From contig LBTB01000004.1 in assembly GCA_000989305.1 (NCBI GenBank), forward strand, positions 12,897 to 76,896: 64,000 nt of DNA. Direction: 5' to 3'. Below are positions 6,800-55,428 of this stretch, piece by piece. The position numbers and the translations under genes were made by a program. The notes below the pieces were generated by a model. It was not told the origin of the DNA. It made no database searches and saw only the letters and a list, made by a program, of their open reading frames with translations. Position 1 is the stretch's first letter, and each line of letters begins with the position of its first letter. The stretch comes from Candidatus Shapirobacteria bacterium GW2011_GWF2_37_20. Its GTDB lineage: Bacteria > Patescibacteriota > Microgenomatia > UBA12405.

Positions 6800-7660
6800 G
6801 AATTTAATTTCTGGTTCTAAGGTGATATTTAGTTTAGATTTGGCTTCGGATTGAATTTTTTTAACGACTGCGTAATAATCAGCGGCAGTAGCATGGCCGA
6901 GGTTGAGAATAAAGTTGCCGTGAAGAGGGCTAATTTGAGCATCTCCTATTTGGAATCCTTTTAAATTAAGCTCTTGATCGATGATGCGGCCAGCAAAGTC
7001 GGCTGGATGCCCAGTTCTGGCTGGTAAATTTTTAAAGACAGAACCGAGAGAATTCATAGACTGAGTTTGGAGTTTTTTGGTGATAATATCAATTACCTTT
7101 TGTCTTGAGGTGTCAGCATCGCCCGGAGTTAGTTGAAAGATGGCGGAGAGGATGATTAGGTTTGGTTTGGTAGCAAATTCTGAGGTGTCGTAAGACCATT
7201 TCAAGATGTTGGATTTTAGGGAATAGGTTTTAGATTGTTCTAAATCGAAGACTTGAATTTCTGTAAGAAATCTATCAAAGTTGTTCTTGTTGATTCCGTG
7301 AATATTGCCAAAAATGGCACCACCGATAGATGAGGGAATATAGGCAAACTCTTCAAGGCCGGAGAGGGAATGATTGATAGTGTCGGTAATTAATAAGGGG
7401 AGATTGACACCTGAATCAACCTTAACCTGGTTGTTGGGTAAATATTCAATAGAATTTGACATGTTTTTAATGACTGTCCCACGGATACCGGAATCGGAGA
7501 TTAAAACATTAGAGCCGTTGCCGAGGATGGTAACATTTTGATATTTTTTTAAAGCCTCAATAAATTCGGCTGTAGTGTTGGTAATAATGAAAGTGTCAGC
7601 GGGACCGCCTATTTTGACGGTAGTATAAGGGGCTAGGGGATGATTTAGGTAAGTTTCCAT
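6782..7660 (-). CDS. murB: UDP-N-acetylenolpyruvoylglucosamine reductase MurB
   Basis: APYTTVKIGGPAD and GNGSNVL FAD-binding motifs. Length 292 aa. Confidence 0.85.
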   Translation of the reverse strand: METYLNHPLAPYTTVKIGGPADTFIITNTTAEFIEALKKYQNVTILGNGSNVLISDSGIRGTVIKNMSNSIEYLPNNQVKVDSGVNLPLLITDTINHSLSGLEEFAYIPSSIGGAIFGNIHGINKNNFDRFLTEIQVFDLEQSKTYSLKSNILKWSYDTSEFATKPNLIILSAIFQLTPGDADTSRQKVIDIITKKLQTQSMNSLGSVFKNLPARTGHPADFAGRIIDQELNLKGFQIGDAQISPLHGNFILNLGHATAADYYAVVKKIQSEAKSKLNITLEPEIKFLGNFS

Positions 7661-7788
7661 GCCTAATTATATATTAAATATATTATTTATAATAAAAAGG
7701 CTTATATATATAATATATATTGTTATTTTGTGGATAAGTGGGTAAATTGTTTTGTGGCTTATAATATTTAATAGGGTAAAATGAACTA

Positions 7789-8604
7789 ATGAGGAATTGG
7801 AAAAGAGCTTGGCTAGTAACAACGCTAATTGTTTTTAGTGCTGGAATTGCTTGGATGTTTGAGGGAAATCAAAAACAAGTTAATATTGGTGGTGTTGTGT
7901 TACCAAAGCCAACTATTATTGAAAATAAATTAAAAATTGCAGTGATGGCGGATATTCACAACGACGAAGAGGAATTAAGAATAATGCTGAAGAAAGCCAA
8001 GGGCAACGGAGTTGAAATGGTGGTGCTGGCTGGTGATTTAACTAATAATGGGAAAACAAGTGAGCTGATTAAGATAAAGGAGGTTTTGGATGAATCAGGG
8101 GTGAAATATGCGGCTGTGCCTGGAAATCATGAGTATTATATTGACGAATTTGTAAAAATATTTGGAAAAAATTACCAGAGTATAAGATTGGGAGAAGTGA
8201 AGTTAATTTTGGTGGATAATAGCTACTGGAAAGGCTTGGATGAGGTGCATAAAAAATGGTTAGAGGGTGAGGTGGGTGAGTGTAGGGTGCTGATTTGTGT
8301 CGCAGTGATGCATAAGCCCTTAAATAATTTGTTTTCGAGCCATGTAATGGGTGAGAATAATGATAAGGCAACGGCAGAAGCATTATGGATGAGAGAATTA
8401 TTAATAACTTTCGGAGTCAGGCAAATTGAAGCGGGACATTTACATTATGCGAGCTCGTATGAGCTCGAAGGAATAAGAACGGATATAGTGGGGGCGGTTT
8501 CCAGGGAGAGAAATAATCAAAGTCCCAGGTATACTGAATTAATGATCGGTAGAGATTTAATAGAGAGAGTTGTGGTGGAGGAAACAGATGGTATTGGGAA
8601 TTGA
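7789..8604 (+). CDS. Calcineurin-like metallophosphoesterase with N-terminal TM helix
   Basis: DIHNDEE, GDLTNNG and GNHEY metallophosphatase motifs. Confidence 0.8.
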   Translation: MRNWKRAWLVTTLIVFSAGIAWMFEGNQKQVNIGGVVLPKPTIIENKLKIAVMADIHNDEEELRIMLKKAKGNGVEMVVLAGDLTNNGKTSELIKIKEVLDESGVKYAAVPGNHEYYIDEFVKIFGKNYQSIRLGEVKLILVDNSYWKGLDEVHKKWLEGEVGECRVLICVAVMHKPLNNLFSSHVMGENNDKATAEALWMRELLITFGVRQIEAGHLHYASSYELEGIRTDIVGAVSRERNNQSPRYTELMIGRDLIERVVVEETDGIGN

Positions 8605-9021
8605 TCCAGGGTTGGAAAATACAGGGTGGGGGGTAGTGGAGAATAATAAGTTGGTGGAATGTGGAGTAATTTTAACTACTAATAAGGATAAAAGTGAAGA
8701 TAGGTTGGAAAAAATTTTTGAAGAAATACAGAAAATTATTAAAAAATATAAAGTGGATGAGGTGGCAATGGAAAGTTTATTTTTTGCCAAAAATGTCAGA
8801 AGTGCGATGACGGTGGCGGAGGCGATAGGGGTGATAAACCAATTTTTGAATACACACCGCTACAGATAAAAATGGCTTTGGTTGGGTATGGGCGGGCGGA
8901 GAAAGAACAGGTGGAGTTGATGGTGAGGGATTGTTTGGGTCTTGAAGAACCAATAACACCCGGCCACGCCTCGGATGCGGTGGCAGCAGCTTTGACGCAT
9001 GAGTTTACAATGAGGCTATAA
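8588..9021 (+). CDS. ruvC: Holliday junction resolvase RuvC, interrupted by a -1 frame discontinuity near 8843-8850 (pseudogene, frameshift or indel)
   Basis: N-terminal part [17 protein letters not shown] reads in one frame up to 8869. The C-terminal part [22 protein letters not shown]...[11 protein letters not shown] continues in another frame up to 9021. The junction lies at a T5 run; a sixth T would restore one ORF. Confidence 0.7.
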
Positions 9022-9065
9022 CCAGTTGATTTGTAATATATATTATGGGTGAGATATAATTTGTT

Positions 9066-10061
9066 ATGGCAGCCTATGAAAAGGAAAAATTGTATAAGGA
9101 ATATCAGAAAAGAAAGGAATCACTTGAAAAATTAAAGGAATCGGTGGTTACCGATATCAGTAGTCTATTAAAGAGTAGGGGTATTGTGGTGAATACCGTG
9201 AAAGGAAGGGTTAAGGATTTTGAAAGTTTTTATCAGAAGATCGAGAGATTAGCGGAATCTGGAGCCTTGTTCGATTCTCCTTGTGATGAAATTCAGGACC
9301 TCGTTGGAGTTCGAATTGTATTATTGTTTGTTAGTGATTTGGATAAGGTTGAATCAATGTTGGGGTCTGTTTTTAAGGTAAAATCAAAAAAAAGATTTAG
9401 TGAAAATATGCCAGATAATCAGTTTGGATATCAGTCGGATCACTATGTTTTAATGTATGGAAACAAGGTAAGGGGGCCTCAATATGGTGAGGTAAAAGAT
9501 ATTAATTTTGAATTACAGGTTCGAACTGTATTGATGGATGCTTGGGACTCTGTTTCTCATGAATTAGACTATAAGAACGATATTCCGATACCATCAAACA
9601 TGAGAAGGGTTTTTTATGGATTAAGTGGTCTTTTTGTGGTTGCTGATCAACAATTTCAACAAATGAACGAATTAATAATAAAGAATAGAAAAGGTAAAAA
9701 GGTGATTGGAAGACCGATTGATTTATTGGAAAGAGAGATTAATTTAGATACTTTAATGGCATATGGTGAATATAAGTTTCAAGATCGGTTTGTAAAGAAG
9801 GATAAAATAAAAAGTGGAGTTGATAAATACTATTTTGAGTTAGCGAAAGAAATTGAACAGCTAAGAAAATACAATTCGATAGCTGATATTGATGAAATTG
9901 TTGATAAGCGTATCTCCGAGGTTTATGCAAAAGAAAAAAAAGAACATGGAGGGGGAACGGTCTTTTTTACGGTAATAGGATTGATTAGGGTGGCTTTGAC
10001 CATGGAGGATCCTGATTATGCATTACTTTTGAAAAATAAGGCTGTGCACACTAAAGAATAG
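9066..10061 (+). CDS. RelA/SpoT-domain small alarmone synthetase-like protein with an extra C-terminal domain of about 95 aa
   Basis: Alignable by eye to RelQ/RelP. Motifs: GRVKDFESF, DLVGVRIV, GYQSDHYV, ELQVRTVLMDAWDSVSHELDYK. Total length 331 aa versus about 210-230 aa for typical SAS proteins. Confidence 0.75.
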   Translation: MAAYEKEKLYKEYQKRKESLEKLKESVVTDISSLLKSRGIVVNTVKGRVKDFESFYQKIERLAESGALFDSPCDEIQDLVGVRIVLLFVSDLDKVESMLGSVFKVKSKKRFSENMPDNQFGYQSDHYVLMYGNKVRGPQYGEVKDINFELQVRTVLMDAWDSVSHELDYKNDIPIPSNMRRVFYGLSGLFVVADQQFQQMNELIIKNRKGKKVIGRPIDLLEREINLDTLMAYGEYKFQDRFVKKDKIKSGVDKYYFELAKEIEQLRKYNSIADIDEIVDKRISEVYAKEKKEHGGGTVFFTVIGLIRVALTMEDPDYALLLKNKAVHTKE

Positions 10062-10104
10062 TGTTCGGCTTTTGTTCGGTCGGGGAAAATGTTATGATGA
10101 GTTT

Positions 10105-10671
10105 ATGATTTCGAGTTTAAAGGGGATGGTTGATCGAGTATGGGGAAATTATATCGAGGTAGAAGTAGGTGGTGTGGGATATTTGGTATGGGTGGGGAGA
10201 AGAAATTATACTGAGGGACAAGAGGTAAAGATTTTTACTTATATGGCAGTATCAGAAAATGATATGGCTTTGTATGGTTTTGAAAATTTTGAAGATTTGG
10301 ATTTATTTAAAATGCTAATTACAGTGTCGGGGGTGGGGCCAAAATCAGCAGCTCAGATTTTAGAGCAGTGTAAGGGAGTGGAAATAATTAAAGCAATTGG
10401 AGATGCCGATACAAGTTTTTTTGAAAAAATAAAGGGAGTGGGAAAAAAGACGGCTCAAAGAATTATTGTGGATTTAAAATCAAAAATCGGGGGCTTAGGA
10501 GAATTAAATTTAAGAGACGAGTCTCCACTGCTCGAAGATGATGTGGTGTTGAGTTTGAGACAGTTGGGATTTGAGAGAAAAGAAATCGAAAATGTAATTA
10601 ATAAAATGCCCATTGAACTAGAGATTCTTGAAGATAAAGTTAGTTGGTGTTTGCAAAACCTAGGACGATAA
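10105..10671 (+). CDS. ruvA: Holliday junction DNA helicase RuvA
   Basis: GVGYLV, LYGF and GVGPKSA motifs plus a C-terminal domain. An upstream alternative start exists at 10072. Confidence 0.85.
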   Translation: MISSLKGMVDRVWGNYIEVEVGGVGYLVWVGRRNYTEGQEVKIFTYMAVSENDMALYGFENFEDLDLFKMLITVSGVGPKSAAQILEQCKGVEIIKAIGDADTSFFEKIKGVGKKTAQRIIVDLKSKIGGLGELNLRDESPLLEDDVVLSLRQLGFERKEIENVINKMPIELEILEDKVSWCLQNLGR

Positions 10672-15431: not shown

Positions 15432-15784
15432 TTATTTTAATTCAACGGTTGCACCAGCGGCTTCGAGTTTAGTCTTAGCTTCGGCAGCAGCGTCTTTTTT
15501 CATAGTGCTTTAGCTTCTTTCAAACCCAATTCTGGTTTGAATTCACGGACAGCTTTGATGACGGCGATTTTATTGGTGCCGGCGTTGGTAACGATGACAT
15601 CAAATTCGCTTTTTTCTTCAACAGCAGCAGCGGCAGGAGCACCGGCGGCAGCAGCGGCAGGAGCGGCGGACATGGCAACAGCTTTAACATCGAACTTTTC
15701 TTCTAGAGCTTTGACCAATTCGGAGAGTTCAAGCACCGAAAGTTGAGAGATTTGGTCGAGGATGGTTTCTAATTTTTTATCCAT
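15432..15784 (-). CDS. rplL: Ribosomal protein L7/L12, C-terminus interrupted by a frame discontinuity
   Basis: Main ORF 15500-15784 encodes NTD, Ala/Pro hinge and CTD up to GLKEAKAL, then hits TGA. The conserved end [22 protein letters not shown] is in another frame (15432-15503). About 13 aa of the CTD appear absent. Confidence 0.8.
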
Positions 15785-53053: not shown

Positions 53054-53068
53054 AGATATTATTGAATG

Positions 53069-53141
53069 AGCCTGAAGTCAGATTCGGACTGACGACCTGC
53101 TGTTTACAAAACAGCTGCTCTACCAACTGAGCTATTCAGGC
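53069..53141 (-). tRNA. tRNA-Thr (anticodon TGT)
   Basis: GCCTGAA/TTCAGGC acceptor. Anticodon loop TTTGTAA. T-loop TCCGAAT. Confidence 0.8.
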
Positions 53142-53166
53142 ATGATGGAGTATTATAGAATAGAAC

Positions 53167-54290
53167 ATGGTAAAAAAGAAAATCTTGGTGATGACAGATC
53201 ACATGCCCTGGGGTCATCGGTCAATCGCCAGAGCTATCTATGGTTTTTTAAAAACTAAAGAGAAAGAAGAAAATTTTGAAGTTTATTACGCTGAAGTGAA
53301 GTCCGAGATGGGAATTTCAAATGATATATATCAATTCAGTTATCGATATTTACCTTTGTCGAGCCGGATTGGAAGATGGATGTCTTATTTGCCTCAAATC
53401 AGAAAAGTAATCGAAGAGTTATCGTTTACTAATTTGTCGGCACCTAAAAAAGTGGTTCAAAAAATAAAGCCAGACTTGGTGATTTCAACCTATTGGTTTC
53501 ATTCCCATTCTTTGGCCGGGTGGAAGGACAGGGGAGATGTAAATTTCAAATTATGGACGGTGGTGGCAGATCCGTGGACGGTGTTGCCGGTGTCATATAA
53601 TTCAAAAATCGATATGCATCTGGTTTATGATCAGATGGGGGTTGATGTTGGGATGAAAGAATGTGGTATCCCAAAAAATAAAATATTAGAAACAGGCTGG
53701 TGGACAAGGCCGGAGATGTTTGGAAAGTTTGATAGAAAAGAAGCCAGAAAAAAACTAGGTTTTAGTGATGACAGACAGGTGGTATTTGTTGGGGGCGGGA
53801 GTTTGGGAACGAATTCTTTAACGAAACTTTTACCAGCTCTAATGTTAATTAAGGGTAAGGTTGGCTTTATTTTTAATACCGGGACGGATAAATTGGCCTA
53901 CAATCTAGTCGAGCAATATACAAGATTGTATAAAAAATTAAACAAGCAGGGAAATGTAATCATTAAAAACCTGGGTTGGATTGAGAACATGGGAGAAGTA
54001 TTAGCCGGGGTAGATATTGTTTTTGGAAAAGCAGGTCCAAATTTTTTGTTTGATGGGCAATTACCCATATTGGAGGGCAAGAAGACGGAAACATAGACTT
54101 GATTAAAAAGAAGGGTTTAGGTTGGGTTAAAGAAAAGGGAACAGAGGCGGCTGATTTTTTATTAGCTTATCTTGAGGACCCAAAAAGATATCAGGATAAA
54201 TTTAAGAAAAATATTGAGACTGAAGCAAGAAAAAACGAAAAGAGTATGGGGATAATACTTGGGGAAATAAAGAGAGAAATGAGAATTTGA
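53167..54290 (+). CDS. GT28/MGDG-synthase (UgtP)-like glycosyltransferase, copy A; two frames joined by a -1 junction near 54064-54069
   Basis: Frame 1 (53167-54096) ends ...FGKAGPNFLFDGQLPI-LEGKKTET*. The conserved continuation GGQEDGNIDLIKKKGLGWVKEK... is in the -1 frame (track ORF 54099-54290). GQE(E/D)GN is the expected next motif of this family. Confidence 0.7.
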
Positions 54291-54307
54291 GTATTATAGA
54301 ATAGGGT

Positions 54308-55428
54308 GTGACTAAAAAGAAAATCTTGGTAATGACAGATCATATGCCCTGGGGTCACCGGTCAATAGCTAGAGCGATTTATGGGTTTTTAAAAACCAAA
54401 GAGAAAGAAGAAAATTTTGAAGTTTATTACGCGGAAGTAAGAGCAAAATTAGGATTAATTCATGAGATGTATATGCTTAGTTATCGGTATTTACCAGTAT
54501 CCAATAAGTTATCCAGATGGATATCGTACTCGCCGGGTTTGAGAAAATTAATTGAAAAAATGTCTCAGGGGAATGTGGTGGCGCCAAGGAAAATAGTTGA
54601 AAAAATTAAACCCGATTTGGTGATTTCAGCCTATTGGTTTCATTCCCATTCTTTGGCCAGGTGGCGTGATAAAGAAAAACAGAAATTTAAATTATGGACG
54701 GCTGTTAGTGACCCGTGGACTATTTTACCGATAGCATATAACTCTAAAATTGATTTGCATTTGGTTTATGACCGGAAAGGGGTGTATTTAGGAATGAAAG
54801 AATGTGGTTTAAAAAGGAATCAGATTTTAATAACAGGCTGGTGGACAAGACAGGAGATGTTTGGAAAGTTTGATAGAAAAGAAGCCAGAAAAAAACTAGG
54901 TTTTAACGATGGTAGGCCGGTGGTATTTTTTGGCGGAGGAAGTATGGGAACTTATTCGTTGGTAAGGTTGTTGCCGGCCTTGATGTTAATTAAAGACAAG
55001 GTAGGTCTAGTATTTAATACTGGGAAAGATAAAAAATCATATGACTTGGTGGAGCGGTACGTAAAGTCATATAAACGATTAAATAAAAAAGGAAACTTAA
55101 TCATTAAAAACCTGGGTTGGATTGAGAACATGGGAGAAGTATTAGCCGGGGTAGATATTGTTTTTGGAAAAGCAGGTCCAAATTTTTTGTTTGATGGGCA
55201 ATTACCCATAATGGGGGACAGGAGGATGGTAATATCAGATTGATAAAGAAGAAGGGTTTGGGATGGGTGAAGGAAAAAAGGGGAGAAGCGGTGAAATTTT
55301 TGCGGGACTATTTAAAAAGACCCAAACGGTATCAGAAAAAGTTTGAAAAAAGTATTGAGAATGAGGCGAAAAGAAACGAGAAAAGTATGGAGATAATCTC
55401 AAAAAGGGTAAAAGAAGAATTGAAGTAA
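54308..55428 (+). CDS. GT28/MGDG-synthase (UgtP)-like glycosyltransferase, copy B; same -1 junction near 55205-55210
   Basis: Tandem paralogue of copy A. Frame 1 ends ...GQLPI-MGDRRMVISD*. The -1 frame continues GGQEDGNIRLIKKKGLGWVKEK... (track ORF 55240-55428). Confidence 0.7.

What the first reader, a model, noticed from the sequence alone, without database searches (positions are those of the whole stretch)
53167..55428. Tandem GT28 paralogues share a conserved -1 frame junction; terminal segments are DNA-identical between copies
Each copy is a long ORF (309 and 311 aa) followed by a 62-63 aa ORF in the -1 frame. The second ORF carries the family's next motif (GGQEDGN). After the junction the two copies differ at the DNA level. 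The -1 frame is conserved (GGQEDGNI[D/R]LIKKKGLGWVKEK...), while the original frame diverges to unrelated tails (LEGKKTET* and MGDRRMVISD*). This is the signature of purifying selection on the shifted frame. The junction cannot be a private indel error in each copy. Separately, the first 130 bp and a 108-bp block ending at the junction (53962-54069 and 55103-55210) are identical between copies. The middle of the genes is only about 70% identical. This pattern indicates concerted evolution by gene conversion. The options are: programmed -1 ribosomal frameshifting, a conserved split into two polypeptides starting at TTG, or a single shared indel error inside the identical block.
Basis: partly seen in the sequence, partly recalled or inferred. 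Interest (0 to 1): 0.72.

Follow-up and report, generated by a model that had tools for sequence, protein, structure and literature searches.

The report
Assembly deletion splits two glycosyltransferase genes
The apparent conserved frameshift in two neighbouring glycosyltransferase genes comes from the same 25-base stretch missing from both copies in this one draft genome record, almost certainly an assembly error and not programmed frameshifting or a split gene.

Summary
The two-ORF layout is really in the window. After the junction, the -1 frame is the one under purifying selection. But the junction is a 25-nt deletion (TTGTGGCTTCTCAAAAACCATTTGT), missing at 54055|54056 and 55196|55197.

- **Other assemblies are intact.** Over 9,125 nt, an independent assembly of the same population differs from the window by 0 mismatches and only these two gaps. 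Assemblies from ENA, JGI and an NCBI third-party (TPA) record encode single ORFs of 369-382 aa reading FLFDVVASQKPFVAITH[I/N]GGQEDGN. The 120 best of 457 homologues are 368-405 aa.
- **Source.** The window's products match KKQ31541.1 and KKQ31542.1, from a Candidatus Shapirobacteria MAG (locus tags US46_C0004).
- **Sibling MAGs differ.** Two sibling MAGs carry different deletions (20, 33 and 126 nt) in or starting in the same block.
- **Other private deletions.** The window also has private deletions in ruvC (25 nt) and in the ribosomal protein gene rplL (31 nt).
- **No frameshift signals.** No slippery heptamer lies in the usable overlap and there is no downstream RNA structure. Any fused product would lack nine conserved core residues.

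The -1-frame conservation is inherited from intact genes. What is real but ordinary is a tandem GT28 (MGDG-synthase-like) pair with a gene-conversion tract, 138 bp when intact. The first 130 bp are 89% identical, not identical.

The parts
53167..54096 (+). GT28 / MGDG-synthase-like glycosyltransferase, tandem copy 1, truncated in this record (309 aa; intact orthologue 382 aa)
   Evidence: ORF. Pfam PF06925 scores 28.7 bits against a cut-off of 25. The intact form is P0128/P0001.
54055..54056 (+). Deletion junction, copy 1. 25 nt (TTGTGGCTTCTCAAAAACCATTTGT) present in other assemblies are missing between these two bases. They encode residues 289-297 (VVASQKPFV) of P0001.
   Evidence: Alignment A2; indel lists.
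54054..54290 (+). C-terminal remainder of copy 1, thrown into the -1 frame by the deletion (WAITHIGGQEDGNIDLIKKKGLGW...). This is the open frame from the -1-frame TGA stop (54051-54053) to the stop at 54288-54290.
   Evidence: Identical to the C-terminus of P0001/P0128.
54308..55243 (+). GT28 / MGDG-synthase-like glycosyltransferase, tandem copy 2, truncated in this record (311 aa; intact 381 aa)
   Evidence: The intact form is P0124/P0010. The 299-aa product starting at MPWGH is exactly KKQ31542.1.
55196..55197 (+). Deletion junction, copy 2. The same 25 nt are missing.
55195..55428 (+). C-terminal remainder of copy 2 in the -1 frame (WAITHNGGQEDGNIRLIKKKGLGW...)
   Evidence: matches the C-terminus of P0010/P0124.
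53957..54069 (+). Block 100% identical to 55098-55210. It is 113 nt here and 138 nt in intact assemblies. It is a gene-conversion tract between the paralogues, and the repeat in which the deletion sits.
   Evidence: The run of 45 identical codons has a chance probability of about 1e-10, given 59% same-codon use elsewhere in the genes.
55098..55210 (+). Copy-2 partner of the identical block
53712..53764 (+). Second identical run, 53 nt, shared with 54853-54905
53148..53163 (+). 16-nt motif GAGTATTATAGAATAG just upstream of the copy-1 start. It is repeated at 54289-54304 upstream of copy 2 and is probably a duplicated leader or promoter element (inference only).
   Evidence: Alignment A1 columns 29-44. 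The sigma-70 consensus scan found nothing on the + strand.

Best explanation
The junction is a local assembly error in this draft metagenome-assembled genome (MAG). In the real genome, each of the two tandem MGDG-synthase-like GT28 genes is one ORF of about 381 aa. The two genes share a 138-bp tract kept identical by gene conversion. In this record, 25 nt inside that tract are missing from both copies. This throws the last ~78 codons into the -1 frame.

The lesion is the same in both copies because it lies in a sequence that short reads cannot assign to one copy, so one erroneous path or consensus was used twice. The mechanism of the error is inferred; the absence of the lesion elsewhere is shown.

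The -1-frame conservation between copies is the ordinary conservation of the C-terminal part of intact paralogues. No recoding and no split protein is involved.
For: 1. **Independent assembly differs only by the two gaps.** An assembly of the same population (L001, ENA) aligns to the window over 9,125 nt with 0 mismatches and only two 25-nt gaps. Both fall inside the identical block.
2. **Other assemblies are intact.** Intact 138-bp blocks and single ORFs occur in L001 (ENA), L002 (JGI) and L006 (NCBI third-party record GCA_003508875.1). Seven contigs were read that carry the intact P0001.
3. **Homologues are single ORFs.** The 120 best of 457 homologues are 368-405 aa. The eight read in full carry FLF[D/E][V/T]VAxxKPFV[A/S]ITH[I/N]GGQEDGN.
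4. **The truncated products are on record only from this MAG.** They are KKQ31541.1 and KKQ31542.1, US46_C0004.
5. **Sibling MAGs carry different lesions in the same block.**
   - US85, copy 2: 33-nt deletion with the same left breakpoint.
   - US85, copy 1: 126-nt deletion.
   - US68, copy 1: 20-nt deletion.
   - All have 0-1 mismatches otherwise.
6. **The window record has further private deletions.** 25 nt are missing in ruvC at 8836 and 31 nt in rplL at about 15507. The four assemblies compared there are intact at both sites where they cover them: one sibling MAG and two ENA assemblies at both sites, and the other sibling MAG at the ruvC site only. US85 has its own deletions in murB, ruvC, ruvA and fmt. 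A 31-nt frameshifting deletion in an essential ribosomal protein gene is not plausible biology.
7. **Such errors are described for this kind of assembly.** Short local assembly and scaffolding errors are described for this aquifer's assemblies and for IDBA-UD assemblies generally (PMC5079060; PMC7111523).
8. **The deleted residues are conserved and structural.** The segment includes invariant A291 and nearly invariant P295, F296 and V297. It spans the end of helix 283-291, a loop, and the start of core strand 296-300 in the predicted GT-B C-domain (pLDDT 88).
Against: No reads were available, so lack of read support for the GATG|GGC junction is inferred and not shown. The exact step that made the error is not identified, and the breakpoints show no microhomology. 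I could not show that the independent assemblies come from the same sample as this MAG, so a rare real variant is not formally excluded.
Confidence: 0.9

Rival explanations
1. A real 25-nt deletion arose in one paralogue in a sub-population and was copied to the other by the same gene conversion that keeps the block identical. Both genes would then be recent pseudogenes.
For: Gene conversion in exactly this tract is well supported. Conversion could carry a deletion across, and both copies do carry an identical lesion.
Against: There are 0 SNPs over 9.1 kb relative to intact assemblies. No other assembly carries the deletion. The sibling MAGs each carry a different lesion in the same block. The same record has comparable private deletions in ruvC and in essential rplL, which gene conversion cannot explain.
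Confidence: 0.07
2. Programmed -1 ribosomal frameshifting joins the 309/311-aa ORF to the downstream frame to make a full-length enzyme.
For: The -1 frame downstream is clearly the conserved one. Two heptamers of slippery form, A_AAT_TTT and T_TTT_TTG, lie at 54039-54048 and 55180-55189.
Against: A shift at those heptamers runs into a -1-frame TGA at 54051-54053 before reaching the motif. No X_XXY_YYZ heptamer lies in the productive overlap, 54054-54093 and 55195-55240. The downstream fold is no better than shuffled sequence (z -0.9 and -0.6). Every homologue and every other assembly is a single ORF. A fused product would lack nine conserved core residues.
Confidence: 0.01
3. The gene is genuinely split into two polypeptides, with the second starting at TTG, and the two assemble into an active enzyme.
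For: TTG-started ORFs of 63 and 62 aa follow each long ORF.
Against: The TTG lies downstream of GGQEDGN, so the motif would be in neither product. The split is not conserved in any relative. Residues 289-297 are simply absent.
Confidence: 0.01

Closest known systems
Local assembly errors in short-read metagenome-assembled genomes (described for IDBA-UD assemblies; Chen et al. 2020, PMC7111523; curation methods in Anantharaman et al. 2016, PMC5079060)
   Same: A short stretch of consensus differs from every independent assembly. It lies in a repeated sequence. It produces incomplete or incorrect protein-coding genes. Several such lesions occur in one record, and sibling assemblies carry different ones.
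   Different: Read-level proof (no perfectly matching read across the junction) could not be obtained here. The identical lesion appears twice because the repeat exists in two copies.
MGDG synthase / processive diacylglycerol glucosyltransferase family (GT28; Pfam PF06925 + PF04101; Arabidopsis MGD1, PDB 4wyi; a processive diacylglycerol beta-glucosyltransferase, PDB 9wde)
   Same: The intact genes have an N-terminal MGDG_synth domain and a C-terminal Glyco_tran_28_C domain. They have a predicted two-domain GT-B-like layout and the GxGxxxE/D...GQExGN nucleotide-sugar motifs.
   Different: They are distant relatives: phmmer E-value 2e-9 to 4wyi, and NCBIfam equivalog scores far below the cut-offs (59.7 against 500). 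Substrate and product are therefore unknown. The family is expanded as a conserved tandem pair in Microgenomates-type Patescibacteria.
Bacterial programmed -1 frameshifting (for example dnaX, IS3-family transposases)
   Same: Only the superficial layout: a long ORF followed by a conserved overlapping -1 frame.
   Different: There is no slippery site in the productive overlap, no stimulatory structure and no conservation of the two-frame layout. The frame change is a 25-nt gap in one record.

Membership tests
Programmed -1 ribosomal frameshift site | Slippery heptamer X_XXY_YYZ inside the overlap between the 0-frame and the open -1 frame | tested here: not met
   the only heptamers near the junction (54039, 54042 and 55180, 55183) lie upstream of the -1-frame TGA at 54051-54053. 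None lies in the productive overlap.
Programmed -1 ribosomal frameshift site | Stimulatory RNA structure (hairpin or pseudoknot) a few nucleotides downstream | tested here: not met
   minimum free energy -12.7 and -10.7 kcal/mol, z-scores -0.91 and -0.58 against shuffles. The folds differ between the two copies. Pseudoknots were not searched.
Programmed -1 ribosomal frameshift site | The two-frame layout is conserved in homologues | tested here: not met
   homologues and the same genes in other assemblies are single ORFs.
Local assembly error in a MAG | The lesion is absent from independent assemblies of the same population that are otherwise identical | tested here: met
   0 mismatches over 9,125 nt apart from the two 25-nt gaps. 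ENA, JGI and NCBI-TPA assemblies are intact.
Local assembly error in a MAG | The same record has other private lesions, including in essential single-copy genes; sibling assemblies have different lesions | tested here: met
   ruvC (25 nt) and rplL (31 nt) in the window. US85 has lesions in murB, ruvC, ruvA, fmt and both GT28 copies. US68 has a 20-nt deletion in GT28 copy 1.
Local assembly error in a MAG | No read perfectly supports the consensus across the junction | not testable with these tools
   No read data were available.
GT28 / MGDG-synthase-like glycosyltransferase | N-terminal MGDG_synth domain (PF06925) above the Pfam gathering score | tested here: met
   28.7 and 26.5 bits against a cut-off of 25.
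GT28 / MGDG-synthase-like glycosyltransferase | C-terminal Glyco_tran_28_C domain (PF04101) with nucleotide-sugar motifs | tested here: inconclusive
   The window ORFs score 13.5 bits, below the cut-off of 22, because they are truncated. Intact orthologues carry a precomputed PF04101 hit, marked weak for P0001 and unmarked for copy 2. They align through GQExGN with PDB 4wyi and 9wde.
Gene-conversion tract between tandem paralogues | A run of identical codons, synonymous sites included, far longer than the background divergence allows | tested here: met
   45 identical codons, against 59% same-codon use elsewhere (P about 1e-10). Relatives have their own tracts: L014, 33 codons in the same region; L013, 20 codons elsewhere.

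The most novel reading that the evidence does not exclude
The 25-nt deletion is real in a minor strain and was spread to both tandem paralogues by gene conversion. That would be concerted pseudogenisation of a duplicated glycolipid or glycosyltransferase gene pair in a Patescibacterium, caught at zero background divergence.
Probability: 0.06. Interest if true: 0.25.

Novelty: not a real feature. Interest (0 to 1): 0.05.

Why it matters
As biology it does not matter: there is no recoding signal and no split enzyme here. It matters for data hygiene.

This public Candidatus Shapirobacteria MAG record and its siblings contain several short private deletions that truncate genes (GT28 twice, ruvC, rplL; in a sibling murB, ruvA, ruvC and fmt). 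The resulting truncated proteins are in public protein databases.

It also shows a trap for sequence-only reasoning. Conservation of a shifted frame between paralogues says nothing about the junction when the lesion lies inside a block that is identical in both copies.

Tried and rejected
- **Programmed -1 frameshifting.** Scanned for X_XXY_YYZ heptamers and folded 92 nt from each junction. The heptamers present are upstream of an in-frame -1 stop, and the folds are no better than shuffles.
- **Split gene with a TTG start.** Rejected because the motif lies upstream of the TTG and no relative is split.
- **TGA recoding.** Considered as a way to extend the -1 frame upstream and rejected. The -1 frame upstream of the TGA (GRYCFWKSRSKFFV) is unrelated to the family, and frame 0 carries the motif GKAGPNFLFD.
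- **Exact look-ups of the window's ORFs** found no gene record. The listing of cluster members did find the NCBI proteins.
- **Collection scans** for either form of the junction, with a 0-25 nt gap. Genome contigs gave nothing. Metagenome contigs gave one 2-kb contig, L003, with the intact 25-nt spacing; I did not examine it further.
- **Sigma-70 promoter scan** gave nothing on the + strand.
- **Microhomology at the breakpoints**, looked for by eye on the alignment, to explain a real slippage deletion. None was found: a 7-nt repeat TTGTGGC lies 21 nt apart and would predict an in-frame 21-nt deletion, not the observed 25 nt.

Full report
**What is in the window**

ORF listing confirms the layout. 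ORF 53167-54096 (309 aa) is followed by 54099-54290 (63 aa, TTG start). ORF 54308-55243 (311 aa, GTG start) is followed by 55240-55428 (62 aa, TTG start). Both long ORFs reach the Pfam gathering score for MGDG_synth (PF06925: 28.7 and 26.5 bits, cut-off 25). They only graze Glyco_tran_28_C, at 13.5 bits.

Over the first 50 codons after the junction, the -1 frame has 37/50 identical residues between the copies. 31 of the 50 nucleotide differences fall at its third codon position. Frame 0 has 15/50 identical residues and several stops.

Two details are not:
- The first 130 bp differ at 14 positions (89.2% identity), and 11 of these are at third codon positions. The protein is conserved there, not the DNA.
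- GGQEDGN lies upstream of the TTG starts, so it is in the open frame but not in the start-delimited small ORFs.

The identical block is 113 nt, at 53957-54069 and 55098-55210.

**What the homologues show**

A search with an artificially fused protein returned 457 hits. The best 120 are 368-405 aa. The top hit, P0001 (374 aa), and P0010 (369 aa) lie on the same contigs, up to 612 kb long.

The eight homologues I read in full carry GKAGPNFLF[D/E][V/T]VAxxKPFV[A/S]ITH[I/N]GGQEDGN. The window reads GKAGPNFLFD in frame 0 and then (W)AITHIGGQEDGN in the -1 frame. Nine residues, VVASQKPFV, are missing.

**DNA-level comparison**

I fetched the loci that encode P0001 and aligned them. The window lacks exactly TTGTGGCTTCTCAAAAACCATTTGT between GATG and GGC in both copies, at 54055|54056 and 55196|55197.

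Over 9,125 nt, the ENA contig L001 differs from the window by 0 mismatches and only these two 25-nt gaps. The frame change is therefore a 25-nt gap. It is not a 1-nt indel and not a recoding site.

In intact assemblies the inter-paralogue identical block is 138 bp, and the missing 25 nt lie inside it.

**Where the window comes from, and what sibling assemblies look like**

Exact look-up shows that the 299-aa form of copy 2 is NCBI KKQ31542.1 (US46_C0004G0080). The 301-aa form of copy 1 is KKQ31541.1. Both come from a Candidatus Shapirobacteria MAG contig of 84,531 bp.

The same 90% clusters hold the products of two sibling MAGs with similar locus tags, US85 (GCA_000992605.1) and US68 (GCA_000992285.1). 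They also hold products of a third-party (TPA) assembly, GCA_003508875.1.

Their DNA shows the following:

| Assembly | Copy 1 | Copy 2 |
|---|---|---|
| Window (US46) | 25-nt deletion | same 25-nt deletion |
| US85 | 126-nt deletion (GATGTT\|ATTAGC) | 33-nt deletion, same left breakpoint (GATG\|CCCATA) |
| US68 | 20-nt deletion earlier in the block | intact |
| TPA, ENA (L001) | intact | intact |
| JGI (L002) | intact | contig ends inside the block |

Each sibling MAG has 0-1 mismatches elsewhere. Three sibling assemblies with three different lesions in one repeated block, against intact versions everywhere else, is the pattern of assembly error and not of inheritance.

**Is this record error-prone elsewhere?**

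I fetched about 43 kb more of independent and sibling assemblies and listed every indel against the window. The window has two further private deletions:
- **ruvC:** 25 nt missing at 8836. This splits ruvC into ORFs of 99 and 49 aa. The intact protein is 152 aa.
- **rplL:** 31 nt missing at about 15507. This truncates ribosomal protein L7/L12 to 94 aa. The intact protein is 127 aa.

Four assemblies were compared there: two sibling MAGs and two ENA assemblies. All that cover each site are intact. US85 (L011) reaches only the ruvC site.

US85 has its own private deletions in murB, ruvC, ruvA and fmt. A frameshifting deletion in rplL cannot be the living state of the organism.

Published methods for this aquifer's genomes describe short assembly and scaffolding errors and an automated repair step (PMC5079060). 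A later methods paper states that local assembly errors, suspected to be especially prominent in IDBA-UD assemblies, propagate incomplete or incorrect genes into databases (PMC7111523). That this MAG belongs to the 2015 Rifle groundwater set is my own knowledge from its accession and locus-tag style. It is not a tool result.

**Frameshifting and split-gene tests**

Heptamers of slippery form exist at 54039/54042 and 55180/55183. A -1 shift there meets TGA at 54051-54053. No heptamer lies in the only productive overlap. Downstream folds are no better than shuffles (z -0.91 and -0.58) and differ between the copies.

The missing residues include invariant A291 and nearly invariant P295, F296 and V297 in a 50-sequence alignment. 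In an AlphaFold model of the intact protein (pLDDT 88, pTM 0.85) they form three elements:
- the end of helix 283-291;
- a loop;
- the start of core strand 296-300, directly before the GGQEDGN loop.

They align with AMIRGLPII of Arabidopsis MGD1 (PDB 4wyi). Any fused or two-piece product would lack these core elements.

**What is real**

The real feature is a tandem pair of MGDG-synthase-like GT28 genes. It sits downstream of a suf/nifU cluster and a tRNA-Thr gene, and the pair is conserved in related genomes.

The paralogues are 75% identical in DNA and 73% in protein. The 45-codon identical run cannot be explained by protein conservation alone: same-codon use elsewhere is 59%, giving P of about 1e-10. 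Relatives have their own tracts, 33 codons in the same region in L014 and 20 codons elsewhere in L013. Recurrent gene conversion is therefore supported, and it is ordinary.

The enzymes are only distant relatives of characterised diglucosyl-diacylglycerol synthases and of MurG. Their substrate is unknown.

**Verdict**

The conserved -1 frame junction is a record-specific 25-nt deletion inside a two-copy repeat, and almost certainly an assembly artefact (confidence 0.9). A real deletion spread by gene conversion remains possible at a few per cent. Frameshifting and a functional split gene are effectively excluded.

Noticed in passing
window 8570-9021 (junction at 8836): ruvC is split into ORFs of 99 and 49 aa by a 25-nt deletion (AAAGGTAGCGGCAAAGAATTTGGGA). 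The deletion is private to this record. Four other assemblies encode an intact 152-aa RuvC at this site.
   Followed up: yes
window 15500-15784 (-), junction at about 15507: Ribosomal protein L7/L12 (rplL) is truncated to 94 aa by a private 31-nt deletion. It is 127 aa in the three other assemblies that cover the site. This is strong evidence that the record contains assembly errors.
   Followed up: yes
L004 and L011 (GCA_000992605.1), matching window 7440-10203 and 57542: The sibling MAG has its own private deletions. They split murB (222 + 50 aa) and ruvC (44 + 92 aa), shorten ruvA (156 against 181 aa), and remove 10 nt from the formyltransferase gene (243 against 291 aa).
   Followed up: partly
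window 53148-53163 and 54289-54304: An identical 16-nt motif, GAGTATTATAGAATAG, lies just upstream of both GT28 start codons. It may be a duplicated promoter or leader. The consensus promoter scan did not flag it.
   Followed up: partly
window 53068-53141 (-): tRNA-Thr (tgt) lies 25 nt upstream of GT28 copy 1, on the opposite strand.
   Followed up: no
L013 (JGI Ga0401393_000004) and L014 (JGI Ga0182027_10000170): Related genomes keep the same tandem GT28 pair next to nifU and Rrf2 genes. They show their own inter-paralogue identical tracts, which suggests recurrent gene conversion in this lineage. L013 has an HNH-domain gene inserted upstream of the pair.
   Followed up: partly
L006 6973-6997 (GCA_003508875.1), matching window 57089: The third-party assembly has 25 extra nt ending in NN (TTCTTAACAACTTTTTTGGCTTTNN) in a locally repetitive stretch. 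This is a scaffolding gap artefact of that assembly and is unrelated to the GT28 lesion.
   Followed up: no
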